Virus record (IMG/VR): IMGVR_UViG_3300038393_003172 | Span: 1-64,000 of that record | Source of the DNA: a virus | Strand: one strand, 5' to 3' | Length of the DNA stretch: 64,000 bases | Shown: positions 1-53,469 of the stretch, in pieces | Position numbering within the stretch: position 1 is the stretch's first letter | Layout: each line of letters begins with the position of its first letter | Program-made: the position numbers and the translations under genes | Notes under the pieces: generated by a model | Seen by the model: the letters and a program-made list of their open reading frames with translations, nothing else | Told to the model about the DNA's origin: nothing | The model's database searches: none

Positions 1-504
1 GTGAGCGAGAAGAATGGTCGGCAGACGCTGAACGTGGACCTGGGCGAGCTGCGCCCGCTGCTTGATGCTGCTGCGAAGAATCAGGGGAAGCGGCCGGCGG
101 CGCTGGTGCGTGATGCGGTGGCGCAGGCGTTGGCAGTGCCGGCGGCGCCGTCCACACGGGCCTCACCGCGGCGCAGGGGAAGGCGCTGGTTGACGGCGAC
201 CTTCCGCCTGTCGGCCGACGAAGCGGATGCGCTGGAGGCTGGGGCGCTGGCCGAAGGCGTATCGAAGGCCGAGCACGTTGGGCGGCTGGCGCTGGCGTTT
301 GACGCGGGCGTCACGCGGCTGCAGGTGCTGGATGCGCTGCACGGGCTGGGTGAGCGGCTGCAGGCGCTGGAATTGGTGCTGCAGCAGCGCCAGCCGGGGC
401 AGGGCACCGTGGCTGCACTGCGCGAGGTCCGGGCGCAGTCGAGGCGGGTATCGGGGATGGTTGAGGCGGTGAGCGCCACGCGGCGCACGGGAGCAAGGCG
501 ATGA
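1..504 (+). CDS. Ribbon-helix-helix protein, MobC-like relaxosome accessory factor (two RHH-like repeats)
   Basis: Two beta-strand/helix patterns (TLNVDLGELRPLLDAAAK...ALVRDAV; TATFRLSADEADALEAGA...SKAEHV); lies upstream of the relaxase; starts at the window edge. Confidence 0.5.
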   Translation: MSEKNGRQTLNVDLGELRPLLDAAAKNQGKRPAALVRDAVAQALAVPAAPSTRASPRRRGRRWLTATFRLSADEADALEAGALAEGVSKAEHVGRLALAFDAGVTRLQVLDALHGLGERLQALELVLQQRQPGQGTVAALREVRAQSRRVSGMVEAVSATRRTGARR

Positions 505-905
505 ACTTCGAATTCGACATGAGCAAGGGCGAGCGCGTGGTCGTTGCAGCTGATGGCTGTGTGGTCCCTGAGCAGATGCTGGAGGCTGCAGCCAAGGCCG
601 CGGGCTTCAAGAAAACGGCGTTCGACAGTGAAGGCGGGTTCTTCGTCAGCGACAACGCCAACATGAACCCGGAGTTCGCGGCGTGGGGGCGATGGAACGT
701 ACACACCGACGACGGCGCCAGCCGTCGCCTGGAGACTGCGCTGAAGATCAGCGTCACGCAGGGCGGCATCGCGGTCTATACGGCAACCCCTTGCGGCATG
801 AGCTTCATGGAGAGCGTCGAAGGCGACCGTGGCGCGGCCACTCGGCTTGCTGTGCTGCGTGCGGCGGCGGCCATGGGTGGCTACCGTGAGCCGGTCGGAG
901 ACTGA
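501..905 (+). CDS. Phage hypothetical protein (LE.AAKAAG...WN..TDDG...ATR.A..RAAA family)
   Basis: ATGA overlap with the upstream gene; motif common in proteobacterial phage small proteins. Confidence 0.6.
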   Translation: MNFEFDMSKGERVVVAADGCVVPEQMLEAAAKAAGFKKTAFDSEGGFFVSDNANMNPEFAAWGRWNVHTDDGASRRLETALKISVTQGGIAVYTATPCGMSFMESVEGDRGAATRLAVLRAAAAMGGYREPVGD

Positions 906-1830
906 TGCCGCGCTGGCCGCCTGGTACGAGCGGCTGTTCTACCCGCGGGCCAAGCGCGGCAAGGCGGCCGAAGACCCGAATCTGCCGAAGCCAAAGGCCA
1001 GCCCGGCAGAGATTCGCGCCCACATCAAGCGTGTGGTGCGCGGCACGCCTGCGGCGGTGGTGAAGATCACAGGCACGCCCACGGGTATGCGTGGCATCCG
1101 GGCGCACCTGCGATACATCACCGAGCGCGGCGAGGCGCTCCACGATGAACTGGGCCGGGAGTACCGAACACCCGACGAGGTACGGACCTTTGGCGACCAC
1201 TTCCGCTATGCCGGCTCGCCTATCCCGCTGGACGGCGACCGGCGCGAGGCGTTCCAGATCGCACTGGACATACCCGCAGGCGACCCGGCAGCGGTGCAGG
1301 CTGCGGCGGTGGAGCTCGCCCAGCGCGAGTTTGACGGCCACCGCTGGGCTTGGGCCTTCCACAGCCACCAGGGGCACCCGCACGTTCACCTGATCGTGCG
1401 GGTGGAGGGCCGGCGCGGGCGGCGGCTGGACCCGCGCAAGGCTGATCTGCACCGCTGGCGCGAAGTGTTCGCGCAGGCGCTGCGCGCGCGCGGCGTGGCG
1501 GCCGACGCCACGCACCGGATGGTCCGCGGCACGGTACGAGATACGGAGCCGATCTACGTCACCCGCGCGCGCGCCGCCGGCACGCTGAAGCACGAGCACC
1601 CGCTGCACGGGAGGGTGACGGTCAAAGCAGCCTCGATGGAGCGCGCGGTGCGCGAGTGGGGCCATATCCACGCGGCGCTGGCCGCCTCGCCTGACGCCGC
1701 CGACCGGGCGCTGGCGCAGGAGGTGAGGGCGTTTGTGGAGCGCATGCCCATGGTTGAACACCTGGCGGGGCTGGAGCGGCAGCGCCAGCAGGTGGTGCAG
1801 CAATCCCAGGCGCACGGCCCGGACAGGTAG
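886..1830 (+). CDS. Relaxase/mobilization nuclease, VirD2/MobP type
   Basis: VVKITG, AHLRYI (catalytic Tyr) and HSHQGHPHVHLIV (HUH triad); likely GTG start at 886. Confidence 0.9.
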   Translation: MSRSETDAALAAWYERLFYPRAKRGKAAEDPNLPKPKASPAEIRAHIKRVVRGTPAAVVKITGTPTGMRGIRAHLRYITERGEALHDELGREYRTPDEVRTFGDHFRYAGSPIPLDGDRREAFQIALDIPAGDPAAVQAAAVELAQREFDGHRWAWAFHSHQGHPHVHLIVRVEGRRGRRLDPRKADLHRWREVFAQALRARGVAADATHRMVRGTVRDTEPIYVTRARAAGTLKHEHPLHGRVTVKAASMERAVREWGHIHAALAASPDAADRALAQEVRAFVERMPMVEHLAGLERQRQQVVQQSQAHGPDR

Positions 1831-1878
1831 CGCCGCGCTACACACTCTGTAGCAAAGTAATGTGTAGCGCGGCGCTAT
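1827..1878. promoter_or_regulatory. Two copies of palindromic operator A (GTAGCGC-N-GCGCTAC)
   Basis: GTAGCGCCGCGCTAC at 1827-1841 and GTAGCGCGGCGCTAT at 1864-1878, upstream of the ORF at 1936. Confidence 0.75.
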
Positions 1879-1935
1879 TTTCGCCCTACATTAAACACAT
1901 GGCGGCACGTTGCCGCCGGCTACCGGAGACACCTG

Positions 1936-2400
1936 ATGCCTGACGCAACCGTAGTCCCAGCCGACCAGACGACTTGGCCTGGCACCACCTACTCGCTGAC
2001 CTACGAGCAGTCTGAACAGCGCGTGGCCACGGCGCTGAAGGTGTTGGCACCGCTGGGCTTCGTGGACGGCAACGAGGAAGGTGAGAGCCCGGGGTTCGTG
2101 ATGCTGCATATCGAGAACCTGCCCGGCATTTACAGGCCGAGCTTTGCCTTCAACGTGTCGGGCTATGCCACGCTGGCCGATGCGCTGGCATCGCTGATGC
2201 CGAAACTGGCCGAGCACTTCCGCGAGCAGGGCCGCGAGGAAATCCGCCAGGGCTTCCGCAATCTCATGCAGTGCGCAGTGCAGCCCGCGAAGCCCTCCCA
2301 GGCTTACCTGCACCAGCAGGCCGAGCAGCAGGAGCGCGAGGAACGCTACCTGGAGGACCGCATGCGGCGCATCGCGCGCGAGGAAGCGCGTAGGGACTGA
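1936..2400 (+). CDS. Hypothetical protein
   Basis: GGAG RBS, 154 aa ORF in operon context. Confidence 0.6.
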   Translation: MPDATVVPADQTTWPGTTYSLTYEQSEQRVATALKVLAPLGFVDGNEEGESPGFVMLHIENLPGIYRPSFAFNVSGYATLADALASLMPKLAEHFREQGREEIRQGFRNLMQCAVQPAKPSQAYLHQQAEQQEREERYLEDRMRRIAREEARRD

Positions 2401-3088
2401 TCAACCAGGCGGCCCCGCGCCGCCTCACCGGAGAACCACGATGCCCACCATGACTCAGACAACCACCGGCTTTGACGCTGCCTGCACCGCGATCCGCGAG
2501 GGGCGTGCCACCCCCTGGGCACTTTGGGCGATCTTGACCAGCGAGCACGAACGCGACGGCTACGCCCTGAAGCCCGCCCCATGGGAAGGCCCTGGCGAGT
2601 ACCAAGCCCTGGCCTACAGCGACGGGCGCATGGCCTTTGTCCGCCTGCCCGACTTCCAGCCTCTACCGAATGTCACGGGAGCCTCCGCATGAAGCTGACC
2701 CTTGACCTCCCCGACGACGAAGCCGCGGCGCTGGCGCTGCTGCTGCGCGCCCTGTCCCCGCCGACGATCCAGAGCCTGGGCCTGACGGTGCCTCAGACCG
2801 ATAAGGCGCTTTCGGGAGTCGTGCGCCTGGGACACGCGCTGGTGCAGCCGGCCTGCGACGAACCGGCGCCAGTCAACTTGAAAGCGTCCACAGCGCTCGT
2901 GCATCGGGCCATGAGCCAACCGACGCTGTGGGCCGTGCGCGCGCGCGGTGGCGCTGAATTCGGCGGATGGATTGCGCTGAACACGCAGGCAGAACTGGAG
3001 CGGCATCTACAGGCGCTGCGCGAGAACCCGACCCTGTGGGAACTGCGCCAGTTCCGCGCGCTGCTGGATGACGGCCAGGAGCGCGGCA

Positions 3089-3328
3089 ATGGCTGACCGC
3101 GCTGCCGTTGGCCTCGCACTGCGCGACGTGCGCGAGTCGGCCGGAATGACGCTGGTGCAGTTGGCCGAAATGCTGGGCATCACCAAGAGTTCGCTGTCTC
3201 GGGCAGAGCTTGGCGAGCGCGACATTGCACTTCAGGAATTCATGGCGCTGGAGGACGTGACGGGCGTCACCTACGCCGACTTTCGCACGCTGGTGGAGCA
3301 CTTCGCCAAGGAGCGCCTCCATGGATGA
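3089..3328 (+). CDS. XRE-family helix-turn-helix protein
   Basis: LRDVRESAGMTLVQLAEMLGITKSSLSRAELGER is a canonical HTH_XRE pattern. Confidence 0.85.
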   Translation: MADRAAVGLALRDVRESAGMTLVQLAEMLGITKSSLSRAELGERDIALQEFMALEDVTGVTYADFRTLVEHFAKERLHG

Positions 3329-3511
3329 CATCGAATCCCTGGCCCGCCGGCTGTACGAGCATGGCACACGCTCGGCGCCGACCTGGGACCAGATCGGCCA
3401 AGGCACGCGCGGAGAGTGGCTGAAGATGGCCCAGCGCCACGCGGCCGGCGACACCGAATGGTGGTCAGTCGTGCCTCGCAAGCCGGTAGAACCGCAGGGG
3501 TCACTTTTCTG

Positions 3512-3766
3512 ATGAACAAAGAACGTAAGCCGTTGCGTGGGCGCCCAAGCCTGCCAGCCGAGAAGCGGCGCGAGTCGGTGCCGGCGCGGCTTCGCAAAGA
3601 ACTGCACGAGCGGTTCAAGGCGCTGGGCGGCGCTGATTGGATGGAGCCGCTGCTGGACGCGGATGTGGAGCCGGCCACCTGGAAAGTGCTGCTGGCGCTG
3701 CCGGCCGACGAACTGCGCCAGCGGCTGGAGCGCATGGTTGATGACGTGAAGGAGTCGAAGGCGTGA
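3512..3766 (+). CDS. Small DNA-binding protein (RGRP + RHH-like)
   Basis: RGRPSLPAEKRRESVPARLRKELHERFKALGG..W pattern. Confidence 0.5.
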   Translation: MNKERKPLRGRPSLPAEKRRESVPARLRKELHERFKALGGADWMEPLLDADVEPATWKVLLALPADELRQRLERMVDDVKESKA

Positions 3767-4317
3767 GGACGAAGGCAATCGGTGGCCCACTGCACGGCCA
3801 GAGCGTTTTCCTGAAGGGCCAGAAGCAGACGCACGAGCACGACGCTGTGTTGTACGTGACGCGCATGTGGGAGGGGGCCGACCGCCGGCTTGTGCCCGTG
3901 CTGGTACTGGCCGACTTGGATATAGGCGAAGCCTTCTCCCAAGCGATGCAGGTGATGGGCGGGAGCGTCACCTAACCCGTTGAGGCGCCTGGGAAACCAG
4001 CGCCAGCAGTGCCGATTCCCAGGAATCGACTGCAGGAAATGCCACACAGATTATTGGCGTTAAGTGAGTACCAAATCCATGAAACACACTGACCTGATAG
4101 AGCGCGCCAAGACCGACAACGGCGCGGCGCTGGAGCTCGCGGCCAAGCTGCGACTGGACATGTGCTGGAACCAGAACGAGGACCCTTGGGAGTTCAATGC
4201 CTGGCCGCAGGGCGGCGGCATGGGCAGCAACGCGGCTCCCGCCGACCACGGCGACGACAACGCGGCGGCAATGCGCAGCGCAATCGTGGAAGCAGCCGAA
4301 CGTGCTGGAGCCGCAGC

Positions 4318-5052
4318 ATGAGCACCACCACCAACACCGCGCCCGCGCTGCTGACGGATGAGCGCCTGATCGCGTGCATCAGGTCCGCTGCTGGGCCTGC
4401 TGTGCCGATGGGCCTGCTGCGTGACCGCGGCCCCTACGAAGTCACCGAGCCGACCTTGTTCGCCCGCAACCTCGCCTCCCTCATCGAGCGCGAAGTGCGC
4501 GCAGCCCTGGCCCAGCAGCAGCCCGCCGCCAGCGGGGCGCAGCCGGACGAGCGCTCAGCTTTCGAGGACTGGGCGATCCGCGCAGGGTTCGCCTTCCGCG
4601 ACGAGCAGCACGGCATCTACTCGCCGGCCGGTGGGCTGGCTCATGCCTGGGAGGCGTGGCAGGCCCGCGCAGCCCTGGCCGCCGCTCCAGCAGCAGCGCC
4701 CTTCGGCTACATGGATCAGCGCACGCTGGACAGCATGAGCAAGCTGTCGCCTCGCGGCTATGTGATGCCGGTTATCACGCGCTCAGCATTCGACGACTGC
4801 ACTGTGCCCGTCTATGCCGGCGCCGCTCCAGCAGCGGCGCAGCCATGGATTTCGGTGAGCGAGCGGCTGCCGGTGCTCAAGCGCGCCGAGCGGACGTACC
4901 TGATCTGGAGCGAACGCTGGTCGCATCCGGTGCAGGCGCGTTTCATGGACGACCAGTGGTGGTTTGCCGGCGAGCAGGTCTACCCGACGCACTGGATGCC
5001 GACGCCCGCCGCTCCTGGCGCTGCGGCGCCGGCCGGGGAGCAGCAGCCGTGA
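4318..5052 (+). CDS. Phage protein with C-terminal DUF551-like domain
   Basis: WISVSERLP...THWMPTPAAP. Confidence 0.7.
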   Translation: MSTTTNTAPALLTDERLIACIRSAAGPAVPMGLLRDRGPYEVTEPTLFARNLASLIEREVRAALAQQQPAASGAQPDERSAFEDWAIRAGFAFRDEQHGIYSPAGGLAHAWEAWQARAALAAAPAAAPFGYMDQRTLDSMSKLSPRGYVMPVITRSAFDDCTVPVYAGAAPAAAQPWISVSERLPVLKRAERTYLIWSERWSHPVQARFMDDQWWFAGEQVYPTHWMPTPAAPGAAAPAGEQQP

Positions 5053-6177
5053 GCGGCGTTCGTGCAGCACGGGCGCTGCTCGCCCTGGATGCCGGCTTGG
5101 CCGAGTGCGTGGAGCTACTGACCGCGCGAGTGCGCCCCAGCAGCCTTGAATGGCGCCCGGCGGTGCTTGCGCTGGTGCGTGAGCGCGTGATGGGTACATG
5201 GACGCTGACGCTGGCAGCAGAGGCGGCGGGCGCAACGGAGCAGCAAGTCGTCGCGGCGCTGCTGTACCTAGAGCCGCTGCGCATCGGCTCCAACTGCGTT
5301 TGCCGCGGAGAGGCCGAGATGCTGTTCGCCGAGCGCGGCTGACGCGATTTGCTAATCCAGATTCTTTTCCTTATTTGGATTATCTGCACAGCCGGGGAGC
5401 ATGGATGAGCATCGAACAAATTCTGGCCGTCATACGTGGCGTGGCGTCGCTTGCGGCGCGCTACGAAGTCAACGGCGAGCCCACGCCTTTCGGCAGGGGC
5501 TTCTCGGTCGCGTGCGGAGAAATTGAGTGGCGCATGCGCGAGCATGTCGGCGCCACCGTGGCTCAGCCCGGCCCAACACATGCAGAAATGATTGCATCCA
5601 TAGAGTCGATCAAGACCGCACCGGCCCTGCTCGCTGCCATATCTGCTTCTGCCGGCGCTACGGCTGCGCATCCAGGCCCGCAAGCGACCATTGCAGCCAT
5701 TCATTGCCGCCTTCAGCACGGAGGTGCGTTGTCCGAAGCTACTCGCCTTGCACTGACTGAGGCATGCGAGGCAGCGGTGCCGGAGCTCAAGGCGCTGCGC
5801 GCCAAGGGCACTGGAGGTGCAGCGTGATGCGCCCGTGGACGTGCGTGCTGCCGCTATTCATCGTGCGCTGGCTGGCGCTGCGGCACGGAGAACGTCTTCA
5901 TGTGGGCGGGAGAACGGTAGTCCTTGGGCCGCCGGGCGTGCTGTTCACCGTGCCTGCCGACGCCCCGTCGTGCAAACTGGATGTGTACGTGATGGCTCCG
6001 AGAATTGACCCACGGCGGCGCAACTGGCATTTGATCAATATGGCGATGCGCGAGCATGAGAAAGTGCATCCCAATCCTGACTCGGGAGTTGATCGTGGCT
6101 AGGTCAGCCTGGGGCCACACGTCGCGCCATTGCCGGTACTGCGGCAAGGTCGGGCCGCGCACGCGGGTGATGCTCGG

Positions 6178-6354
6178 GTGGACCTGCTGACCATAAAGCG
6201 CAGCGCCGGGGAGGCCGAGTACGGCCAGCCGCTGCCGGCGCTCAACGCCTACATTGACGCCGAGCTGGCGCGGCTGGCCGCAGTCAGCCCGCCCCTTCCG
6301 AGAGACACCGACTTCTCGGTGCTGGATAGGCTGCTGTTCGGGACCATCGTTTGA
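6178..6354 (+). pseudogene. C-terminal fragment of a YcgL/RlaP-like nucleotidyltransferase
   Basis: DLLTIKRSAGEAEYGQPLPALNAYIDAELARL...LDRLL resembles the C-terminus of PF10127 proteins; no N-terminal part is present. Confidence 0.5.
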
Positions 6355-8090
6355 CATTGGCCGCGGCGATGCGCGCGCAGTGCTCGCGCACCAGCCGGCG
6401 CGCGTCCGGCTTGCTGGCGAACCAGGCGAACAGCGGGTAGCAGTCGTCTTGCGCCAGCGCGGGCGGCGGCCAGCCGGTCATGGTCAATCGCCTTCCTTGG
6501 AAGCGGTGATCGTCACCAGCGGTGGCGCCTGCCACCCCACCTTGAGCATCCACTTCAGCAAGTCCTCAATTGCTGCCATGGCGTATCCGCTCTCGCTGTC
6601 CTCGTTGTCGGGATCATCGAAGCCGTAGTCGCGCAGCAACTCGCGCGCCTTCATCGCGGGCGGCATCACGCCCTTGCCCAGCAGTTCCCGGGTGCCGTCC
6701 GGCCGCTTGCCGAAGATCTCGCACAGGTCTGCCTCGTCCAACGCGGTAGGCCTTGGCTGCTCGGCGTTCCTGTCGGCTGCGAAGCGGTGATAGGCGGCGC
6801 TCGGGTTGCTGTCCAACAGGTCCAGCGCGGCCTGGCCGCCAAGGTCGCGCACGATGGTCTGCAGGGCGCCCTTGTAATCGCTGTCGTCGGCGAAGTAGAG
6901 CGCGGACACGGCCTCGCCCAATGCGTGTGCGGGGTTCATCAGGCGGTGGCCCCGTGGATCAATGGTTTGATGAGGCCCCACAGCCATGGCACGCCGTAGG
7001 CGAGCGCAAGGCCAATGAGGACGCCGACGACGATCAGGAACACCAACAGCCCCGTGAGGTCGATGTTGTAGTAGCCGCGCTGGCGGTGCTGCGGCCCGAT
7101 GCCGCGTGGCCTGCGAAGCTGGCGCTGCAGCACCTCGCGCAGTCTCTCGTTCGGCTGGCCGAGTTTGCGAAATGGTGCAAGTTTGCGAAATTGCGAAAAA
7201 TCGAAATTTCCGGGCATGTCAGCTCCCCAGCACTTCTTCGCCGACCGCATCCGAGTCGCTGGCACCAGGTGGAGGCGTATTGGGCTTTGGCTTGAGCATC
7301 AGGCCCTCGCGGTTGAGGCGGTCGAGCACGTCGCGGAAGCCGTCAGGCCCCACACCCTTGATCGCATCGAGCCGGTAGACGTCCAGCGCCAGCAGCTCGC
7401 GCAGCGTTTCCACGCCGGCCTTCTTCAGCGGCACGATGACGCGGTAGTCCCACCAGTCCAGCGAGATCAGCAGCCGGTCCAGGCGCCGGTCCTCTGTCTC
7501 GGCTGGCGTCGGCGCGGGCGCACTCGGCAGCGGCTGGCCAGGCTCGCGCGTCGGCTCGGCTCGCTGCTCAAGAATGGCATCGGCCCACTCGTAGCAGAGC
7601 ATCGCCCACACAGCCAAGAATGCGCGCCGGGTGGTGGTGTCGGACAGGTTGACTTCGCCGTCGCCCCACACGGCATGAACCATGAGCAGTTCAACAGGCG
7701 CGCGCATGGCGAACTCGTCGCGCAGTGTGGAGGGGCTGATCGTGTCCATGTCTTATTCCCCCTGCTTGGGTTCGAACTCGGCCCGCAGTGCCTCGTATTG
7801 CCTGCGCCTGGCCGCTTTGCCACTCTCCAGATCCTTGGCGAGATTGGCAGCGCGCAGGTCTGTCAGCTCGCGATGGGTGGCGATGCCGGCGGCTACCAAC
7901 GATGAGTCGCCATAGTCGAGAACGTCGAGCTTCGCGGGCCATATCCCAGCGTCACCGTCGTGGCCGTAGCTGACCTCCAGAGTCGTGAACGTGCCATCCG
8001 TGAACACGATCACGGACTGCTTTGTGTAGGAGCTTCCGGCGTCGATGAACTTGACAGTGCGACCAACGGCCTCGGTTGATGTGACCTCTT

Positions 8091-10298: not shown

Positions 10299-11528
10299 TC
10301 AGCCCTTCACGCACACGACCTGCTTGAGCGTGTGAACCACATCCACCAGGTCGGCCTGCGCAGCCATCACGGCGTCTATGTCCTTGTACGCCTGGGGCGT
10401 CTCGTCCAGCACGTCGGCGTCCTTACGGCACTCCACGCCGGCGGTGGCCGCCTCGTGATCGGCCAGCGTGAATCGCTTGCGGGCCTCGTTGCGGCTCATC
10501 GCGCGGCCAGCGCCATGCGAGCAACTGCAGAAGCTCTCGCGGTTGCCCTTGCCGCGCACGATGAAACTGCGGGCGCCCATGCTGCCGGGGATGATCCCGA
10601 GCTGGCTTTCTTGCGCGGACACGGCGCCCTTGCGCGTCACCATCACGTCCGCGCCGAAGTGCTTCTCGCGCGAGACGTAGTTGTGGTGGCAGTTCACCGC
10701 AGAGCAGACGCATGCAAACGGCCTGTGAATCGCACTGGCCATGGCAGACAGGGCCGCTTCCATCATCAGCTCACGGTTAGCGGCGGCAAAGCGTTGCGCC
10801 CAATCGAGCGCCTTCCAGTAGTCGTTGAAAAGCTCAGAGCCCTCGGGGATGTAGGCCAGGTCGTCGTCGGGCAGGTTGATGAACCAGCGACGCATGTCCT
10901 TCTTCGCCAGCTCGATGAAGTGGCTGCCGATGGCGTTGCCGATCCCCCGCGATCCCGAGTGCAGCATGATCCAGACGCGCTGCTCTTCGTCCAGGCAGAC
11001 CTCCACGAAGTGGTTGCCCGTGCCCAGGGTGCCGGCGTGCGAGGCCGCGCGCTGCGCCGCCTGCCGAATTGCCGGGTACTTGTCGCTGATCCAGCAAAGC
11101 TCGGACATGATCGGCTGCATCTTGACAAGCACGTCAGGAGGGGTTGTGCCCCAGGCGCCACGGTCCCCGGAGCGGCCGTTGTTCGTGCGGCCATGCGGGA
11201 TGCGGGCCTCGATGGCGCTGCGCAGCCCGGCCAGGTTGTCGGGCAGATCGCTGGCGGTGAGCGTCGTGCGCTGGGCGATCATCCCGCAGCCGATGTCCAC
11301 ACCCACAGCGGCCGGGATGATGGCGCCCTTGGTCGGTATGACGCTGCCCACCGTGGCGCCTTTGCCGAGGTGAACGTCCGGCATCACAGCCATATGCTTG
11401 TGAATGAACGGCATGCCGGCGATGTTGAGCAGCTGCTTGCGCGCCTCGTCCTCGACCTGCACGCCGCGCGTCCATGCCTTGATCGGCACGCGGGCGCCTT
11501 CCATCACTTCATAGCTGTAGGTGGTCAT
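10299..11528 (-). CDS. rtcB: RtcB-family RNA ligase
   Basis: MPDVHLGKGATVG, VGVDIGCGM, GTLGTGNHFVE, MLHSGSRG, CHHNY, TRKGA, IIPGSMG, SHGAGR, DETPQAYK, KQVVCVKG. Confidence 0.97.
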   Translation of the reverse strand: MTTYSYEVMEGARVPIKAWTRGVQVEDEARKQLLNIAGMPFIHKHMAVMPDVHLGKGATVGSVIPTKGAIIPAAVGVDIGCGMIAQRTTLTASDLPDNLAGLRSAIEARIPHGRTNNGRSGDRGAWGTTPPDVLVKMQPIMSELCWISDKYPAIRQAAQRAASHAGTLGTGNHFVEVCLDEEQRVWIMLHSGSRGIGNAIGSHFIELAKKDMRRWFINLPDDDLAYIPEGSELFNDYWKALDWAQRFAAANRELMMEAALSAMASAIHRPFACVCSAVNCHHNYVSREKHFGADVMVTRKGAVSAQESQLGIIPGSMGARSFIVRGKGNRESFCSCSHGAGRAMSRNEARKRFTLADHEAATAGVECRKDADVLDETPQAYKDIDAVMAAQADLVDVVHTLKQVVCVKG

Positions 11529-14233: not shown

Positions 14234-15064
14234 TCATGCTTCGCCTTTCCGGCAGCACTCGGCCGGCAGCTTCGGGCAGGAGGCGCAGTCAGGCCCATCA
14301 GGCAGGGCGCGCAGCGGCTGCCAGGACACGGGGCGCACCTGATAGAAGCCGCTGCCGTCCGAGTAGGGCAGGAACCACCCGTCGAAGGATGGCTGTTCCT
14401 CACCGCCGCCGCAGGCGTAGTGCATGGGCTCCAGCAGCTTCCCGTCAGCCGCGCGCCCGCGCACATACGTGCAGTCCTGCGGCGCAGAGCTCAAGGCGTC
14501 CCAGCGCCCTGGGCGCCATTCCACGTCATCGCTCCAGTGCCGGCGGATGCGCCGGTAGGTGTTGATGGCGAACTTGAAGCCAGCCGCAGCGCGGCGAACA
14601 GCGCCGCGCTCCTGTCTGAAGCGCCAGCGCGAGAAGTAAGGCAGCTTCGTGTCGCCATCGAAGTCGCGGTCGATCTCGGTGAGCACCACCTCGTCGGCCA
14701 CGTGCAGCGCCAGCGCGTACACCTGGGCGCCGCCTATGACGTAGATCACTGGCTCACGCAGATGCGTCAGGCGTGCAATGGCGAACTCCAGTGATGGAGC
14801 CAGTTCCTGCGCACCGCATTCCGCTGCAGCCGCAGCGTGTGCCTCTGTGCGCGTCAGCACCACGTTGCGCCGGCCCGGCAGCGGCCGGTGCTGCGCAGGC
14901 AGGCTCTCCCAGGTGCGCCAGCCCATCACCACCGCCGCGCCCATGGTGAGCTTGCGGAAGTGCTCCATGTCTTCGGGGAAGTGTCCCCAGGGCAGGGCAC
15001 CCTTGTGGCCGATCACGCCGTTGCGGGCGACGGCGGCCACCAGCACGACGCGCGGGCGGCTCAC
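14234..15064 (-). CDS. folA: Dihydrofolate reductase with C-terminal extension
   Basis: VAAVARNGVIG..GALPW..PEDMEHFRKLTMG..VVMG.RTWESL...PLPGRRNVVLT...YVIGGAQVY; GTG start. Confidence 0.9.
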   Translation of the reverse strand: MSRPRVVLVAAVARNGVIGHKGALPWGHFPEDMEHFRKLTMGAAVVMGWRTWESLPAQHRPLPGRRNVVLTRTEAHAAAAAECGAQELAPSLEFAIARLTHLREPVIYVIGGAQVYALALHVADEVVLTEIDRDFDGDTKLPYFSRWRFRQERGAVRRAAAGFKFAINTYRRIRRHWSDDVEWRPGRWDALSSAPQDCTYVRGRAADGKLLEPMHYACGGGEEQPSFDGWFLPYSDGSGFYQVRPVSWQPLRALPDGPDCASCPKLPAECCRKGEA

Positions 15065-19149: not shown

Positions 19150-20964
19150 TCAGGCTCCCTGTGCCACGCTGATCGCCACCGCCACGTTGCGCACCCAGAT
19201 GGGCGCCGCGGAGAGCTGGAACGTCTCGCCGGACCATGCGAGCAGTAGAGTGCGCCCCATCTCGCTGGCTATCGCTTCAGCGGCAGCGGGGGGGACGGCG
19301 TTTCCAATTCTTTCCCTCCAGTCGCTGTCGCTCAGGCCGTCGAGCTCCAACGCTTCCTCCGGCTCCACCAGCGACTGCATGACGGCGCACTCCCAGGTCG
19401 TGAACGGGCGGTGCCAGGTGCCGTCCTCGGCCACGATCAGCGCGTTGATGTTGTCGGTGGCCGCTGGCAGCAGCCGCGGGTCGGCCACGCTCCAGCGCCC
19501 GTTGTCATGGCAGGCCGCCGCGCTCACCGCGCCGCTGGTGCCGTCCCATGGCAGCACACCGTAGTGGCCGCCCGTCAGGTAGGCCGCGCGCTCGGCGTCC
19601 ATGCCGCTGCGCGGGTCGGCCACGGACAGCCAGCCGCCCTGCACACCCTTGCCGCCCGCGATGACCGTGCGCGAGGGCTCGCCCCACTGCCCGACCACCA
19701 GGTTGTTGCCGTGGCGATCCCATTGCGGGCGCGGGTCGGCCAGCGCCAGCCCGCCCGCCGTGGGGCCAGCGCCGCCGGTGATGGCCGGCGAGGTGTCGCC
19801 CATGCGAACCACGCGGAACACGTTGTTGTGCCGCACGCCCTCGGGCCGCGGGTCGGCCACGCTGTAGGTGCCGCCGCCGGGCGCGGACTGCCCGGTGATG
19901 GCGCCGCTGGTTTCATCCCAGCGCCGCACGCCGTACTGCTGGTATTGCTTGGCAGCTTCCGGTGCGCGCGGGTCGGCCACGCTGAAGGCGCCGGTGGCCG
20001 GGCGCGCGTTGCCGGTCACCGTGCCGGCGCTGTCGTCCCAGGCATGCACGCCCAGCGCCGTGTTGCGCATGTCGGGCACGATCAGGTAGTCCCGCAGCAC
20101 TCCGTCCTGCACCGCCAGCCGGTTGAGGCTGCGCCAGTCCTTGCCGGCCTCCACGAACGCGAGGCGCACCCAGGTCTGCCACTGCAGGCGCGGCAGCCGG
20201 TGCATCGGGCCGGCGCGCATGTCGCCCGGCAGGGGGGCACGCGACAGCACGTCGCCAACGGTCAGCAGCCGGTGCTGTTCCGGCTCGTACAGCAGCGGCG
20301 GCACCTTCTCGGTGTGGCGCGCAACCATCAGGAACCGCTTGCGGCTCTGCGGCAGCTTGCCGATCTTGCCGCAGTCGTGCGTCGTTTCGGCCACGGCGTA
20401 GCCGAAGGCGCGCAGCATGGACTGGATCTTGTCGAGCAGTGCCCGGCCGCGCGTGGCGATCATCGGGACGTTCTCGAAAATGATCAGCTCGGGCGGGTCG
20501 TCGCGCCATGCCTCCAGCATCAGCCACATGCCGCGAACCGTCAGCTCGCTCAGTGCGATGTACTTTCCCGTGAGACTCTTTTTCGCGGAGAGCAGGCCCG
20601 AGAAGGCTTTGCACGGCGCGGACAGGAACACGATGTGGGGCCGCTCGCCGCCGGCTGCACGCTTAATGTCCTGGGGGGTTGCCTCGTGCCATCCAGCGGG
20701 CGGCTGCCGGCCCCAGAAGCGCACGTACTGGCTGCGGTCGAACAGGTCCAGCACCGTGCCGGGCACACCGGCCAACCGGCCGAAGTCGCGCACCGCAGCG
20801 GGGTCCACGTCGATGCCGCCGATACAGCGGAAGCGCGCCTCCATGTTCCCGACGCGGGCCTCGCCTTGGTTGAAGCCTTTGGCGCCGCCGCCCAGGCCGG
20901 CGAACAGGTGGAAGTGGCGAATCTCACGCACGTCCGGTGCAAAGGTAATTGCGTCACGTTTCAT
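19150..20964 (-). CDS. DNA cytosine-5 methyltransferase with internal ADPR repeats
   Basis: HLFAGLGG (motif I), SAPCK (IV), FENVP (VI), QSRKR (VIII), IGNAVPP (X); repeated SVADPR units. Confidence 0.92.
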   Translation of the reverse strand: MKRDAITFAPDVREIRHFHLFAGLGGGAKGFNQGEARVGNMEARFRCIGGIDVDPAAVRDFGRLAGVPGTVLDLFDRSQYVRFWGRQPPAGWHEATPQDIKRAAGGERPHIVFLSAPCKAFSGLLSAKKSLTGKYIALSELTVRGMWLMLEAWRDDPPELIIFENVPMIATRGRALLDKIQSMLRAFGYAVAETTHDCGKIGKLPQSRKRFLMVARHTEKVPPLLYEPEQHRLLTVGDVLSRAPLPGDMRAGPMHRLPRLQWQTWVRLAFVEAGKDWRSLNRLAVQDGVLRDYLIVPDMRNTALGVHAWDDSAGTVTGNARPATGAFSVADPRAPEAAKQYQQYGVRRWDETSGAITGQSAPGGGTYSVADPRPEGVRHNNVFRVVRMGDTSPAITGGAGPTAGGLALADPRPQWDRHGNNLVVGQWGEPSRTVIAGGKGVQGGWLSVADPRSGMDAERAAYLTGGHYGVLPWDGTSGAVSAAACHDNGRWSVADPRLLPAATDNINALIVAEDGTWHRPFTTWECAVMQSLVEPEEALELDGLSDSDWRERIGNAVPPAAAEAIASEMGRTLLLAWSGETFQLSAAPIWVRNVAVAISVAQGA

Positions 20965-52059: not shown

Positions 52060-53469
52060 TCAGGCGGTCTTCTTCGCGCCGCGCTTCGCGGGCACCTTCA
52101 CCGGGGCCGCTTCAGCGGCAGGCGCTGCGGCGGCACCCTTGCGCGCCTTCGTGCTGCTGCTGCGCGCGGCCTTGGCAACGGCCTGCTGCACTGCCTGCGC
52201 CACCTCCGGGGTGGGGGCCTGCTCGGGCTGCGCGGCATCCTCGGCCGCGAGCTGCACCGGCTCGGCGCTGACGGCCTGCACCGGGGCCTGTTCCTCGGCC
52301 GCGCCAGCCGTCGCCAGCTCAGGCACGGGGGCCTCCACCGTGGCCTGCTCCGGGGCCGGCTCGGCGGCAGCCGCAGCGGCAGCCAAGTTCAGCGTCACGG
52401 CAACCGCCGAGGGCGCCGTCTCCGACACGCTGGCGCCAGCCTTCGCGCACATCTCGCGCAGCGCCTTCCAGGCGTTCAGCTTGATCGCCTCGCCAGAGCC
52501 AAACCAGGCGCTGTCCAGTCGAGTGCTGTTCGTCTTGCGGCGCTCGTGGTCAACGAACTCGGTCACGCTGTTGAGCAGCGACCATGCGTTGCCCTTGCCG
52601 CACAGGTTGGCGCCGATCAGCTTGCCGTCGAACAGCTCCATCACCCGCTTGTAAGCCTTGCTGCGGCGCACATCGGGCAGCGCCTTACCAGGGGGCAGCG
52701 ACTGTGAGGACAGCAGCACGTCCGCCACCAGCGCGTCGGCCTGCGCCTCGGTCACGTCCACCTGCGCCATCAGCCGGGCCTCGACAAGCCAGCGGTCCCA
52801 GGCGTTCACCACGATCCCCAGGCGCTGGCGCACCTCGTCGGCCTTGAACTTCGTCATGTGCGGCACCCGCACACACTGCACGACAGGCCCTTCCGTGGTG
52901 TCCCGCTCGGTCTGCCTGCTTCCGTTCGCCATGGATGCGCCTGCAGCCATCGTCAGCGTGTTGTTGCACACCACGCGCACCGCGGTGAACTTGGCCGTGG
53001 TGGACATGGAGCCGTCGAAGCTCGTAGCGAGCAGCACATAGGGGCGCACCTGATCGTGGCCCACCACCGGGGCACCGTCGTTCACCCGCGCCAGCCCCCA
53101 GATGCGCTTGCCGTCCAGCAGCGAGCCGGCGGTTTCCAGCGTGAAGCCGCCGGCCTCGGCCAGCTTTCCGAAGAAGTCCAGCACCTCGCCCGGCTGGACC
53201 ACCTTGTAGCGGCTGCCCACGATGCCCAGCTCCGCGCCGGTATCGCTGCGCACCAGCGCGTGGCCGCCGCTGACAGGGTGCAGGGGGCTGTCCTCCCCGC
53301 GCTGGAACATCAGCGCGGCGCGCTCCACGCTCCAGTCCAGCCCCGCCTCGCGGCGCCAGGTTTCGAGGTCGGCGCCAGCCGACAGGCGCTGGCCCAGGCC
53401 GTGCCACGGGGTTTCACCCACGAAGGCGATTGCGTCACGGCCGGTGGTGTTGTCGATCAGGTGAGCCAT
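52060..53469 (-). CDS. DUF932 family protein with Ala/Glu-rich tail
   Basis: ETPWHGLG, VRSDTG..LG.VG..Y..VQP.EVL.FF, LETAGSL..GKRIW.LA, LATS.DGS, RVVCNNTL, AW.LLN.VTE.VDH. Confidence 0.9.
   Translation of the reverse strand: MAHLIDNTTGRDAIAFVGETPWHGLGQRLSAGADLETWRREAGLDWSVERAALMFQRGEDSPLHPVSGGHALVRSDTGAELGIVGSRYKVVQPGEVLDFFGKLAEAGGFTLETAGSLLDGKRIWGLARVNDGAPVVGHDQVRPYVLLATSFDGSMSTTAKFTAVRVVCNNTLTMAAGASMANGSRQTERDTTEGPVVQCVRVPHMTKFKADEVRQRLGIVVNAWDRWLVEARLMAQVDVTEAQADALVADVLLSSQSLPPGKALPDVRRSKAYKRVMELFDGKLIGANLCGKGNAWSLLNSVTEFVDHERRKTNSTRLDSAWFGSGEAIKLNAWKALREMCAKAGASVSETAPSAVAVTLNLAAAAAAAEPAPEQATVEAPVPELATAGAAEEQAPVQAVSAEPVQLAAEDAAQPEQAPTPEVAQAVQQAVAKAARSSSTKARKGAAAAPAAEAAPVKVPAKRGAKKTA

What the first reader, a model, noticed from the sequence alone, without database searches (positions are those of the whole stretch)
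1..1878. Conjugative-type relaxase and MobC-like gene embedded in a phage operon
Seen: RHH gene, then a typical phage small gene, then an HUH relaxase, all overlapping. The relaxase stop codon (TAG 1828-1830) lies within phage operator A. No T4SS or coupling protein is visible in the window. Known: VirD2/MobP relaxases mobilise plasmids and are unusual in phages. Inference: a mobilisable phage-plasmid with two transfer routes, or a relaxase co-opted for phage DNA processing. The tight integration argues against a recent plasmid insertion.
Basis: partly seen in the sequence, partly recalled or inferred. Interest (0 to 1): 0.7.

Follow-up and report, generated by a model that had tools for sequence, protein, structure and literature searches.

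The report
Conjugation relaxase at a prophage's edge
A working-looking plasmid-type DNA-nicking enzyme and its helper gene, copied from a conjugative island of soil Burkholderiales, sit at the cut left edge of an incomplete prophage record, so it is still open whether the phage carries them or merely lies against them.

Summary
Positions 1-504 encode a ribbon-helix-helix relaxosome accessory protein. Positions 501-905 encode a phage-type small protein. Positions 886-1830 encode an intact 314-aa HUH relaxase (Pfam PF03432 above threshold, catalytic Tyr and His motif kept, AlphaFold model matches solved relaxases). Its TAG stop lies inside a 15-bp palindrome that recurs only in this phage. No T4SS, coupling protein, ParA or recombinase is in the 73-kb record.

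The pair is about 80% identical in DNA to an Azohydromonas element. The family sits in integrative conjugative or mobilisable elements of Sphaerotilaceae, as SSB-DUF932-ParA-ParB-oriT-RHH-relaxase.

An assembly chimera is unlikely, because contigs from four runs bridge the relaxase/phage junction.

The record is a trimmed IMG/VR provirus, 61% complete. Position 1 is exactly the RHH start codon, so the expected oriT (about 55 bp upstream) and the left flank are missing. In one run the phage stands at about 2,700x from position 1662 onward, while 1-1661 stays at 34x or less.

Two readings stay open: a phage-borne mobilisation pair (0.42), or a neighbouring ICE/IME relaxase that the prophage abuts or has integrated into (0.35). 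Earlier notes of this scan report phage-relaxase hybrids on other DNA.

The parts
1..504 (+). Relaxosome accessory gene. It has two RHH-like units and a NikA-like fold signal. Its GTG start is the first base of the record.
   Evidence: Pfam RHH_1 16.4 bits and NikA-like 16.3 bits, both below cut-off. It aligns end to end with 30 homologues that precede relaxases. It is 77% identical in DNA to L002 over 13-487. dN/dS against L002 is 0.52.
501..905 (+). Phage-type small gene (134 aa) inserted between the RHH gene and the relaxase gene.
   Evidence: phrog_5086 at E 3e-15. The three best ESM Atlas clusters (score 0.93) are 53-69% viral, with NinX and ABA-sandwich families as leads only. Positions 488-909 have no counterpart in L002. 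No such insert occurs in the 72 of 80 loci where the RHH gene directly precedes the relaxase.
886..1830 (+). HUH relaxase, 314 aa from GTG 886. The frame is open from 829, and GTG 877 was used for searches.
   Evidence: PF03432 38.1 bits, above the 24.6 cut-off. MobP1 75 bits, below 200. Invariant Y80 and the H162/H164/Q165/P168/H169/H171 motif in alignment A1. AlphaFold pLDDT 90.1. The 12 best PDB fold hits are all relaxases. 81% DNA identity to L002 over 910-1801. dN/dS 0.20.
1662..1662 (.). Leftmost base covered at phage-level depth in run X5. It is either a mosaic break or a candidate left end of the phage DNA.
   Evidence: X5 pieces cover 1662-1845 (depth 2364), 1816-1875, 1847-1906 and 1877-4548 (depth 2687). 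The bins over 1-1600 show a depth of 34 or less.
1827..1841 (.). Phage-wide 15-bp palindrome, copy 1. It contains the relaxase stop codon.
   Evidence: Sequence. The core occurs 7 times in the record and 0 times in the 103 other loci held then.
1864..1878 (.). Palindrome copy 2 (14 of 15). With copy 1 it forms a 17-bp stem followed by TTTT.
   Evidence: RNA fold of 1815-1900: -40.7 kcal/mol, z -5.85, 0 of 200 shuffles fold as well.
1936..2400 (+). First gene downstream (154 aa, no family match). It is the start of the rightward block 1936-6354.
3089..3328 (+). Xre/Cro-type HTH regulator in the same block.
   Evidence: PF01381 48 bits.
4079..4321 (+). Second member of phrog_5086.
   Evidence: E 3e-8. 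Direct BLASTP against the 501-905 protein is not significant, E 0.047.
4318..5052 (+). DUF551 phage protein.
   Evidence: PF04448 30.4 bits; phrog_924 and phrog_60.

Best explanation
The RHH gene and the relaxase gene form a genuine, intact MOBP-like relaxosome pair. It was captured from an integrative conjugative or mobilisable element of Azohydromonas-type Sphaerotilaceae. It now forms the left-end accessory region of a large temperate, lambda-like tailed phage, and a phage-type gene has been inserted between the two genes.

The most likely working (inferred, not shown) is as follows. The RHH protein bends an oriT that should lie about 55 bp upstream of the RHH start codon, just outside the record. 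The relaxase nicks that oriT with its Tyr and His-triad centre and stays bound to the 5' end. A coupling protein and T4SS of a co-resident ICE of the same host group then export the excised or episomal phage DNA. The phage would be mobilisable in trans as well as transmissible in particles. A strong hairpin made of two phage operator palindromes ends the relaxase transcript and separates it from the repressor-controlled rightward operon.
For: Enzyme intact:
- PF03432 scores above its cut-off.
- Y80 and the H-x-H-Q-x-H-P-H-x-H motif are invariant or nearly invariant in 28 aligned sequences.
- The AlphaFold model has pLDDT 90.1, and its 12 best PDB fold hits are all relaxases.
- dN/dS against the nearest locus is 0.20.

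Origin:
- 81% DNA identity (relaxase) and 77% (RHH gene) to Azohydromonas MAG locus L002.
- 547 of 600 pattern hits in genome contigs encode relatives, nearly all in Burkholderiales.
- Gene families found within about 10 kb of the relaxase among the 80 loci: ParB/KorB in 36, DUF932 in 28, SSB in 27, ParA in 23, AlpA in 8, VirB4 in 7, tyrosine integrases in 7 and 5.

Linkage to the phage:
- The inserted gene 501-905 is phage-type. No such insert separates the two genes in the 72 of 80 related loci where they are adjacent.
- A second phrog_5086 gene and a DUF551 gene lie 2.2-2.5 kb downstream.
- The stop codon lies in a palindrome found 7 times in this record and never in the 103 other loci.
- Logan contigs bridge the junction with 0 differences in X1 (one 12,480-bp contig covering 1-6000), X2 (21-3571), X7 (1351-1929) and X5 (1662-4548). 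The search marks X1, X2 and X5 as possible sources of this DNA, so only X7 counts as independent.
- In X1, X2 and X7 the RHH region and the phage region have equal depth.
- Divergence from L002 is the same before and after 1662 (dS 0.66 and 0.67).

Helpers are plausible: homologous relaxases sit beside VirB4 T4SS genes in Azohydromonas loci L002 and L003.

Phage identity of the record: TerL, portal, protease, major capsid, RecT and YqaJ.
Against: - The pair is at the trimmed edge of a provirus record. Phage genes are shown only to its right.
- Logan contigs continue 1.6-2.2 kb to the left of position 1, and I could not read that sequence.
- In X5 the phage stands at about 2,300-2,800x from 1662 rightward. 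Positions 1-1661 reach at most 34x and 401-1000 about 0. The abundant phage there either has a relaxase allele more than 5% different or has no relaxase 5' part at all.
- No relative of this relaxase was found in 50,697 phage records or in IMG/VR contigs (both scans depend on short peptide patterns).
- All 80 contexts retrieved are bacterial genome contigs.
- No oriT-like site lies inside the 73 kb. The oriT model also misses the closest clade, so that test is weak.
- There is no T4CP.
- The overlap with the operator is only 4 bases.
Confidence: 0.42

Rival explanations
1. The RHH gene and the relaxase gene belong to a neighbouring ICE/IME, or to a plasmid. The prophage abuts the 3' end of the relaxase gene or has integrated into it, and it carries its own copy of the last ~169 bp (56 codons) so that the target gene stays whole. 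I recall that phage 21 and e14 do this with icd. The record's left boundary is then a software artefact, and the true phage end is near 1662-1830.
For: - IMG/VR classes the record as a provirus. Its first base is exactly a gene start, as expected from boundary trimming.
- In X5 phage-level depth (about 2,300-2,800x) begins at 1662, and positions 1-1661 reach at most 34x. A chromosome of 4 Mb or more at 2,700x would need more than the 6,016 million letters of that run, so 1662 onward is amplified or particle DNA there (my inference).
- All 80 other contexts of this relaxase family are bacterial genome contigs with ICE/IME genes, and the DNA downstream of the relaxase is variable.
- Tyrosine-recombinase genes lie directly or closely downstream of the relaxase in L053, L017 and L010.
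- Our relaxase tail is about 9 residues shorter than that of L002.
- No integrase was found in the left 73 kb.
Against: - A phage-type gene sits inside the RHH-relaxase pair. None of the 72 ICE/IME loci where the two genes are adjacent has such an insert.
- dS against L002 is the same before and after 1662 (0.66 and 0.67), although only 42 synonymous sites lie after it.
- The base before 1662 falls in a Gly codon at a column that varies (G/A/M/T/S/L) among homologues. The X5 break is therefore also what a divergent allele would give.
- In X7 identity resumes at 1351, not at 1662.
- No att repeat could be looked for, because the right end is missing.
Confidence: 0.35
2. The pair is phage-borne but is inert cargo. 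It would be a recent illegitimate capture from an ICE, with no oriT and no role, waiting to decay.
For: - No oriT-like site was detected within the record.
- There is no T4CP.
- The region is variable between samples. X7 lacks 339-1350 at phage depth and X5 lacks 1-1661.
- The RHH gene has a relaxed dN/dS of 0.52.
- The MobC-type NLNQ stretch seen in more distant relatives is missing in this clade (that this motif marks MobC is recalled).
Against: - Both ORFs are full length and the catalytic residues are intact.
- The genes keep overlapping, translation-coupled junctions even around the inserted gene.
- The expected oriT position is simply outside the record.
Confidence: 0.12
3. The relaxase has been recruited for a phage task other than transfer. 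Candidates are oriT-specific integration or excision (relaxases such as TrwC can recombine oriT copies; recalled), rolling-circle initiation, or sabotage of resident ICEs by nicking their related oriTs.
For: - No tyrosine recombinase, serine recombinase or DDE recombinase is in the 73 kb of this record, and no tyrosine integrase is in relatives G001 and G002.
- The relaxase sits where lambda-like prophages keep int (my comparison).
- Host-group genomes hold several related relaxase loci. At least 4 loci come from A. australica.
Against: - The records are only 30-61% complete, so an integrase may lie in the missing part.
- The phage has its own replication module, with a DnaD-like loader hit.
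- Relatives G001 and G002 lack any relaxase.
- There is no direct evidence.
Confidence: 0.05
4. An assembly chimera joins ICE DNA to phage DNA.
For: The source is a metagenome. The pair lies at a contig-slice edge. The family is multi-copy in the host group.
Against: - Independent Logan assemblies of 4 runs cover the junction with 0 differences. One 12,480-bp contig in X1 spans from 1,581 bp left of position 1 to beyond 6000, and depths are matching in X1, X2 and X7.
- X1, X2 and X5 may be source samples and so are not fully independent.
- X7 is not flagged as a source, and its contig bridges 1351-1929.
Confidence: 0.03

Closest known systems
TraS/VirD2-like relaxases with an upstream MobC/TraR-type accessory gene on PromA-group and Xanthomonas/Paracidovorax plasmids (for example record AJ304453 traS and LC623906 traS/rlx)
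   Same: The relaxase domain aligns at 33-43.5% identity over 63-86% of the query. In several records an annotated mobC gene lies directly upstream. The gene order is the same, accessory gene first and relaxase second.
   Different: Only the N-terminal two thirds align. The plasmid records are mostly predicted conjugative (1,979 of 2,285). Here no T4SS, T4CP or replicon genes are seen, and the right-hand neighbours are phage genes.
The ~320-330-aa relaxase family of Sphaerotilaceae integrative conjugative and mobilisable elements (nearest: Azohydromonas MAG locus L002; P0014 of A. australica)
   Same: The proteins are homologous over their full length, at 54-84% protein identity for the nearest proteins. 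DNA identity to L002 is 81%. The RHH partner and the catalytic motifs are the same.
   Different: In those elements the pair is preceded by ParA, ParB/KorB and a T-border-like oriT, and T4SS or integrase genes lie nearby. Here a phage-type gene splits the pair, phage DNA follows it, and the upstream side is unseen.
Phage-plasmids and their derivatives that carry mob or oriT (P1-like group; Pfeifer & Rocha 2024, PMC10879196, passages read)
   Same: This is a precedent for a relaxase or oriT on a phage-derived replicon. [quoted passage not shown]
   Different: Those are Enterobacterial P1-like plasmid prophages with partition and replication genes. This record is classed as an integrated provirus, shows no ParA or plasmid Rep, and belongs to a different phage type.
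Integrative mobilisable elements (IMEs)
   Same: A relaxase and its accessory gene without their own mating pore, dependent on a helper T4SS. Some relatives have the minimal form integrase-ParB-RHH-relaxase (L027), and L014 and L050 show similar integrase-bearing forms.
   Different: If the pair is phage-borne, the cargo here would be a whole tailed-phage genome of about 100-120 kb. No integrase or oriT has been seen so far.
Solved relaxase domains: MobA of R1162 (2ns6), NES (4ht4), MobM (4lvi and others), TrwC, F TraI
   Same: The HUH relaxase fold. Foldseek gives probability 0.99-1.00, and TM normalised by target length is 0.47-0.57 for MobA, NES and MobM.
   Different: Sequence identity is 9-18%. 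A profile search of PDB sequences finds only NES, at E 0.47. A helical C-terminal third of about 100 residues has no solved counterpart.

Membership tests
HUH conjugative relaxase (Pfam PF03432, MobA/VirD2-like; MOBP-like) | Domain score above the curated threshold | tested here: met
   38.1 bits against a cut-off of 24.6, E 2.2e-9.
HUH conjugative relaxase (Pfam PF03432, MobA/VirD2-like; MOBP-like) | N-terminal catalytic tyrosine motif | tested here: met
   Y80 (codon 1114-1116) is invariant in 28 aligned sequences, in the context HLRYITERGE. Its catalytic role is inferred by analogy with VirD2 and TraI (recalled).
HUH conjugative relaxase (Pfam PF03432, MobA/VirD2-like; MOBP-like) | Histidine-triad metal site (H-x-D/H-x3-P-H-x-H) | tested here: met
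   The motif reads FHSHQGHPHVH. H162, Q165, P168, H169 and H171 are invariant and H164 is at least 90% conserved. His stands where I recall Asp in the textbook consensus.
HUH conjugative relaxase (Pfam PF03432, MobA/VirD2-like; MOBP-like) | Relaxase fold | tested here: met
   Model pLDDT 90.1 and pTM 0.83. The 12 best PDB hits are all relaxases.
NCBIfam MobP1 subfamily (NF041450) | Whole-protein score above the curated cut-off | tested here: not met
   75.4 bits against a cut-off of 200. Only residues 76-231 match. I therefore call it MOBP-like and do not file it as MobP1.
Functional mobilisation module (relaxase + accessory protein + cognate oriT) | oriT with a nick site next to the genes | not testable with these tools
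   In 50 of 74 relatives a T-border-like motif GTGCAG(A)GATAGGCG lies upstream of the RHH start, mostly 50-67 nt away. That position lies before base 1 of this record. Inside the 73 kb nothing matches beyond chance.
Functional mobilisation module (relaxase + accessory protein + cognate oriT) | Accessory RHH/MobC-type protein encoded directly upstream | tested here: inconclusive
   It is homologous to the partner gene that directly precedes the relaxase in 72 of 80 loci. The Pfam RHH_1 and NikA-like scores are below threshold, and no MobC (PF05713) hit appears at E 0.1 or better.
Self-transmissible conjugative element | T4SS ATPase (VirB4) and coupling protein | tested here: not met
   PF03135, PF02534 and PF12696 give 0 matches in the 73 kb. 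The record is 61% complete.
Tailed temperate phage (Caudoviricetes) | Terminase, portal, protease and major capsid; tail genes; lysogeny control | tested here: inconclusive
   Head and packaging genes are met, and RecT and YqaJ are present. Tail genes are absent because the record stops inside a structural gene whose homologue in L083 is 213 aa long. Relative G001 has a 1,815-aa ORF in the corresponding downstream region.
Phage-plasmid | Plasmid partition and replication genes on a phage genome, with extrachromosomal maintenance | tested here: not met
   No ParA (PF01656) was found. The only ParB_N-type domain is fused to a methyltransferase. IMG/VR classes the record as a provirus. The unseen upstream DNA could change this.

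The most novel reading that the evidence does not exclude
A large lambda-like temperate phage of soil Sphaerotilaceae carries a working MOBP-type relaxosome (oriT just left of the record, RHH protein, relaxase) as part of its packaged genome. It would then spread by two routes: in virions, and as relaxase-piloted single-stranded DNA through the T4SS of the ICEs that are common in its hosts. A bolder variant is that the relaxase doubles as the phage's integrase at ICE oriT or relaxase loci, which would explain why no recombinase is seen.
Probability: 0.28. Interest if true: 0.65.

Novelty: new member of a known kind. Interest (0 to 1): 0.4.

Why it matters
If the pair is phage-borne and active, this phage could cross between cells that lack its receptor by riding an ICE's mating pore. 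That would be a further example of the blurring between phages and conjugative hitchers. The papers I read report this only as rare: mob or oriT in two P1-like phage-plasmids (PMC10879196, passages).

If the prophage instead targets the 3' end of a relaxase gene, it would be a phage that lodges inside conjugative elements and travels with them. That is also of interest for how mobile elements nest.

Either way, one look at the 2 kb left of position 1 and at the high-depth run settles it. The relaxase family itself and its T-border-like oriT in Sphaerotilaceae ICEs/IMEs are ordinary.

Tried and rejected
Circular genome. The last ORF (72936-73208) is in frame with ORF 1-504, which suggested one gene across a circular junction. 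I rejected this. The homologue in L083 is 213 aa and continues differently after residue 91. ORF 1-504 is full length against 30 homologues.

Context of the closest relaxases. The metagenome-contig scan returned only L105, a near-copy of L002.

Relatives among viruses. Two IMG/VR pattern scans and tblastn against 50,697 phage records found none. An exact 42-mer from 1936-1977 had no match in IMG/VR.

DNA of 1-6000 against the phage and plasmid collections (megablast) gave no match.

oriT inside the record. Regex searches gave only chance-level hits with 1-2 mismatches (6319, 60726, 27517 and others). An nhmmer model built from 50 oriT regions gave a best E of 1.2. The model also failed on the nine relative loci without a regex hit that I used as controls (L002-L007, L010, L014, L016): it found nothing upstream of their RHH genes, and its single hit lay elsewhere in L014. 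It is therefore blind to the closest clade. blastn-short of the upstream regions of L002-L005 against the genome gave only short GC-rich matches.

Related prophages in cultured relatives. DNA of 1831-6400 against 301 genomes of the family gave only matches of about 25-100 bp, which I take as chance. The major capsid protein found nothing at E 1e-60 or better in 301 genomes. Protein 1936-2400 found nothing in 5 genomes.

Head-gene relatives G001 and G002 (about 55-60% identity) have no relaxase at E 1 or better and no tyrosine integrase. They are only 53% and 30% complete.

Paralogy of the two phrog_5086 genes. Direct BLASTP is not significant (E 0.047). Only the shared profile hit links them.

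The consensus promoter scan of 1-7000 found no site.

Literature. Six exact phrases for phage-encoded relaxases returned 0 papers. A broader search listed 396 papers, of which I read passages of five: PMC12282955, PMC7969092, 10.1101/2025.11.07.687105, PMC11389934 and PMC10879196. Supplements were not opened. The supplementary tables of PMC7969092 may list phages with CONJscan relaxase hits.

Depth figures from Logan contigs are k-mer means and not copy numbers. The X5 argument is an inference.


Full report
WHAT THE RECORD IS

The window is the first 64,000 bases of a single 73,208-bp virus record. IMG/VR classes the record as a provirus, and CheckV rates it 61% complete. G+C is 60-72%.

The far end of the record (64.2-73.2 kb) encodes a ParB-methyltransferase fusion, a large terminase, a portal, a head protease and an HK97-type major capsid. 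The interior holds RecT, a YqaJ exonuclease, RtcB, DHFR, several DNA methyltransferases, a DnaD-like loader hit and a RusA hit. The record is a large lambda-like temperate phage.

No tail genes are present, because the record stops inside a structural gene. ORF 72936-73208 covers only the first 91 residues of a protein that is 213 aa long in the related IMG/VR contig L083. In that relative a 1,815-aa ORF and about 27 kb more follow.

The left end is cut in a different way. Base 1 is exactly the GTG start of the first gene, as shown by alignment with 30 homologues. That is what software trimming at a gene boundary produces. Logan contigs of three runs continue 1.6-2.2 kb further left.

THE OBSERVATION

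All items hold.

- ORF 1-504 has only sub-threshold RHH_1 and NikA-like signals. It is nevertheless the full-length homologue of the gene that directly precedes the relaxase in 72 of 80 related loci, with a gap of -35 to +31 nt in 71 of those 72.
- ORF 501-905 overlaps the RHH stop (ATGA). It matches phrog_5086 at E 3e-15. All 30 of its nearest ESM Atlas clusters are unnamed hypothetical proteins, and the three best (score 0.93) are 53-69% viral. NinX and ABA-sandwich families are leads only.
- The relaxase frame is open over 829-1830. Comparison of N-termini puts the start at GTG 886, which gives 314 aa.
- The relaxase passes Pfam PF03432 (38.1 against 24.6 bits). It reaches only 75 of the 200 bits needed for NCBIfam MobP1.
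- Tyr80 and the motif FHSHQGHPHVH are conserved across 28 aligned sequences.
- A confident AlphaFold model (pLDDT 90.1) has relaxases as its 12 best PDB fold matches: F TraI, MobA, TrwC, NES, MobM and pCU1 TraI.
- The TAG stop lies in GTAGCGCCGCGCTAC (1827-1841), and a second copy lies at 1864-1878. The core occurs 7 times in the record and never in the 103 other loci held.
- The two copies fold into a 17-bp stem followed by TTTT (-40.7 kcal/mol, z -5.85). They may therefore also end the relaxase transcript.
- No VirB4, coupling protein, ParA, tyrosine recombinase, serine recombinase or DDE recombinase is in the 73 kb.

WHERE THE PAIR COMES FROM

The relaxase belongs to a large family of 320-330-aa proteins. 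In the protein search, 179 proteins passed E 0.001 among 8,000 scored candidates, and the nearest were 76-84% identical, from metagenomes. Nearly all are Burkholderiales of the Azohydromonas, Roseateles/Pelomonas, Piscinibacter, Methylibium, Rubrivivax and Ideonella group. Several copies can occur per genome, and some lie on complete chromosomes.

I clustered the neighbouring genes of the best 80 loci and scanned representatives against Pfam. That gives a typical ICE/IME backbone. The numbers are loci out of 80 with the family within about 10 kb:

| Family | Loci |
|---|---|
| ParB/KorB | 36 |
| DUF932 | 28 |
| SSB | 27 |
| ParA | 23 |
| DUF7673 | 16 |
| AlpA | 8 |
| VirB4 | 7 |
| Tyrosine integrases (two families) | 7 and 5 |

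RadC, DUF1173 and LPD7 also occur. The NikA-like RHH gene and the relaxase follow this backbone, and the DNA after the relaxase is variable.

In 50 of 74 loci a conserved motif GTGCAG(A)GATAGGCG, followed by a short palindrome, lies upstream of the RHH start, mostly 50-67 nt away. Its reverse complement resembles the RP4 and T-border nick core as I recall it, so I read it as the family's oriT.

The nearest locus with context is L002, from an Azohydromonas MAG. It is 81% identical in DNA over 910-1801 and 77% over 13-487, whereas 488-909 has no counterpart. The phage-type gene is therefore a clean insertion into an otherwise standard pair. dN/dS against L002 is 0.20 for the relaxase and 0.52 for the RHH gene.

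On plasmids the best matches are TraS/VirD2-like relaxases, often with an annotated mobC gene upstream. They align at 33-43.5% identity over about two thirds of the protein.

IS IT A CHIMERA?

Probably not. Nine public soil or rhizosphere runs hold at least part of 1-6000, and seven of them hold at least 97% of the sampled words. I laid four runs on the stretch:

- X1: one 12,480-bp contig covers 1-6000 with no difference and begins 1,581 bp to the left.
- X2: a contig covers 21-3571.
- X7: a contig covers 1351-1929.
- X5: overlapping pieces cover 1662-4548.

X1, X2 and X5 may be source samples. X7 is not flagged as one.

IS THE PAIR PART OF THE PHAGE?

This is the open point.

For a phage-borne pair:
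- A phage-type gene sits inside the pair.
- A second phrog_5086 gene and a DUF551 gene lie just downstream.
- The stop codon is embedded in a phage-specific operator.
- Depth over the RHH region equals depth over the phage region in X1, X2 and X7.
- Synonymous divergence from L002 is equal before and after 1662.

Against it:
- The pair lies at a trimmed provirus edge.
- Every other context of the family is a bacterial ICE/IME.
- No relative was found in phage collections.
- In X5 the phage stands at about 2,300-2,800x from 1662 rightward, while 1-1661 reaches 34x at most and 401-1000 about 0.

A chromosome could not reach 2,700x in a run of 6,016 million letters. In X5 the DNA from 1662 onward is therefore amplified or particle DNA (my inference). 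Whatever lies to its left in that run differs from this record.

Two explanations fit that pattern:
- The abundant phage has a divergent relaxase allele. The base before 1662 falls in a codon that varies among homologues, and in X7 identity resumes at 1351.
- The phage genome begins near 1662 and carries only the last 56 codons of a relaxase gene, the gene into which it integrates. I recall that phage 21 and e14 do this with icd.

I could not read the alternative path, so I give the phage-borne reading 0.42 and the neighbour or integration-target reading 0.35.

MECHANISM (INFERRED)

If the pair is phage-borne, the working would be as follows. The RHH protein and the relaxase assemble on an oriT about 55 bp left of base 1. 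Tyr80 nicks and binds the strand. A T4CP and T4SS of a resident ICE export the DNA. Homologous relaxases sit beside VirB4 systems in Azohydromonas loci.

Nothing of this is shown. The oriT is outside the record, and no oriT-like site lies inside it. The oriT model is blind to the closest clade.

COMPARISON AND NOVELTY

The enzyme is an ordinary member of an ICE/IME relaxase family. Relaxases or oriTs on phage-derived replicons are reported as rare: all but two P1-like phage-plasmids lack them (PMC10879196, passages). Conjugation domains were only sporadic in a recent phage-plasmid survey (10.1101/2025.11.07.687105, passages). Six literal phrases for phage-encoded relaxases found no paper.

Earlier AI notes of this scan describe at least eight prophage-relaxase hybrids on other DNA, mostly with their own coupling protein. 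I did not test those notes. This case is weaker than they are, because it has no T4CP, no visible oriT and an uncertain boundary. I therefore rate it as a new member of a known kind, with interest 0.4.

Noticed in passing
window 1827, 1864, 16334, 20993, 28773, 53607, 63781 (15-mers): The palindrome GTAGCGCSGCGCTAC is dispersed in intergenic regions of the whole phage. Its 13-nt core occurs 7 times perfectly in this record and never in 103 other loci. In form it recalls the KorB operator of IncP plasmids (recalled). The phage encodes a ParB_N-methyltransferase fusion, which might be its binder.
   Followed up: partly
loci L008-L081, upstream of the RHH start codon (mostly 50-67 nt): A conserved T-border/RP4-nic-like motif GTGCAG(A)GATAGGCG followed by a GGCG..CGCC palindrome occurs in 50 of 74 Sphaerotilaceae ICE/IME loci. 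It is a likely oriT of this relaxase family. The closest clade (L002-L005) lacks the exact motif. L006 and L007 have GCAGGAT variants about 50 nt upstream.
   Followed up: partly
window 1662-6000 in run X5: The phage reaches a k-mer depth of about 2,300-2,800 in one soil metagenome of 6,016 million letters. That is far above what a chromosome could reach, so the phage was replicating or present as particles in that sample.
   Followed up: partly
window 339-1350 in run X7: The flanks 1-338 and 1351-6000 are identical at a depth of about 350-390, but the stretch holding the RHH 3' end, the inserted gene and the relaxase 5' half is not covered. This looks like an allelic or mosaic variant of exactly this module.
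   Followed up: no
window 52060-53469 (-), 53640-55325 (-), 19150-20964 (-), and G000 64646-66328 (+): A DUF932 protein (177 bits) and three large DNA methyltransferases, one of them fused to a ParB_N domain. These gene types also mark plasmid and ICE leading regions. The DUF932 of the ICE relatives was not detectably close to the phage one in tblastn at E 1e-5.
   Followed up: partly
G000 72936-73208 joined to 1-504: The truncated last ORF is in frame with the first ORF and no stop lies between them. This mimics a circular junction but is a coincidence, because the homologue in L083 continues differently.
   Followed up: yes
loci L027, L014, L050; L053, L017, L010: Some relatives look like minimal IMEs (integrase-ParB-RHH-relaxase in L027; similar integrase-bearing forms in L014 and L050). 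In others XerC/D-like recombinase genes lie directly or closely downstream of the relaxase. The relaxase 3' side may be an insertion hot spot.
   Followed up: no
window 10299-11528 (-), 14234-15064 (-): The phage's leftward operon carries an RtcB RNA ligase (phrog_1075, E 5e-151) and a dihydrofolate reductase.
   Followed up: no
records G001, G002 and G000: None of the three related provirus records (30-61% complete) shows a tyrosine integrase. How this phage group maintains lysogeny is unknown.
   Followed up: partly
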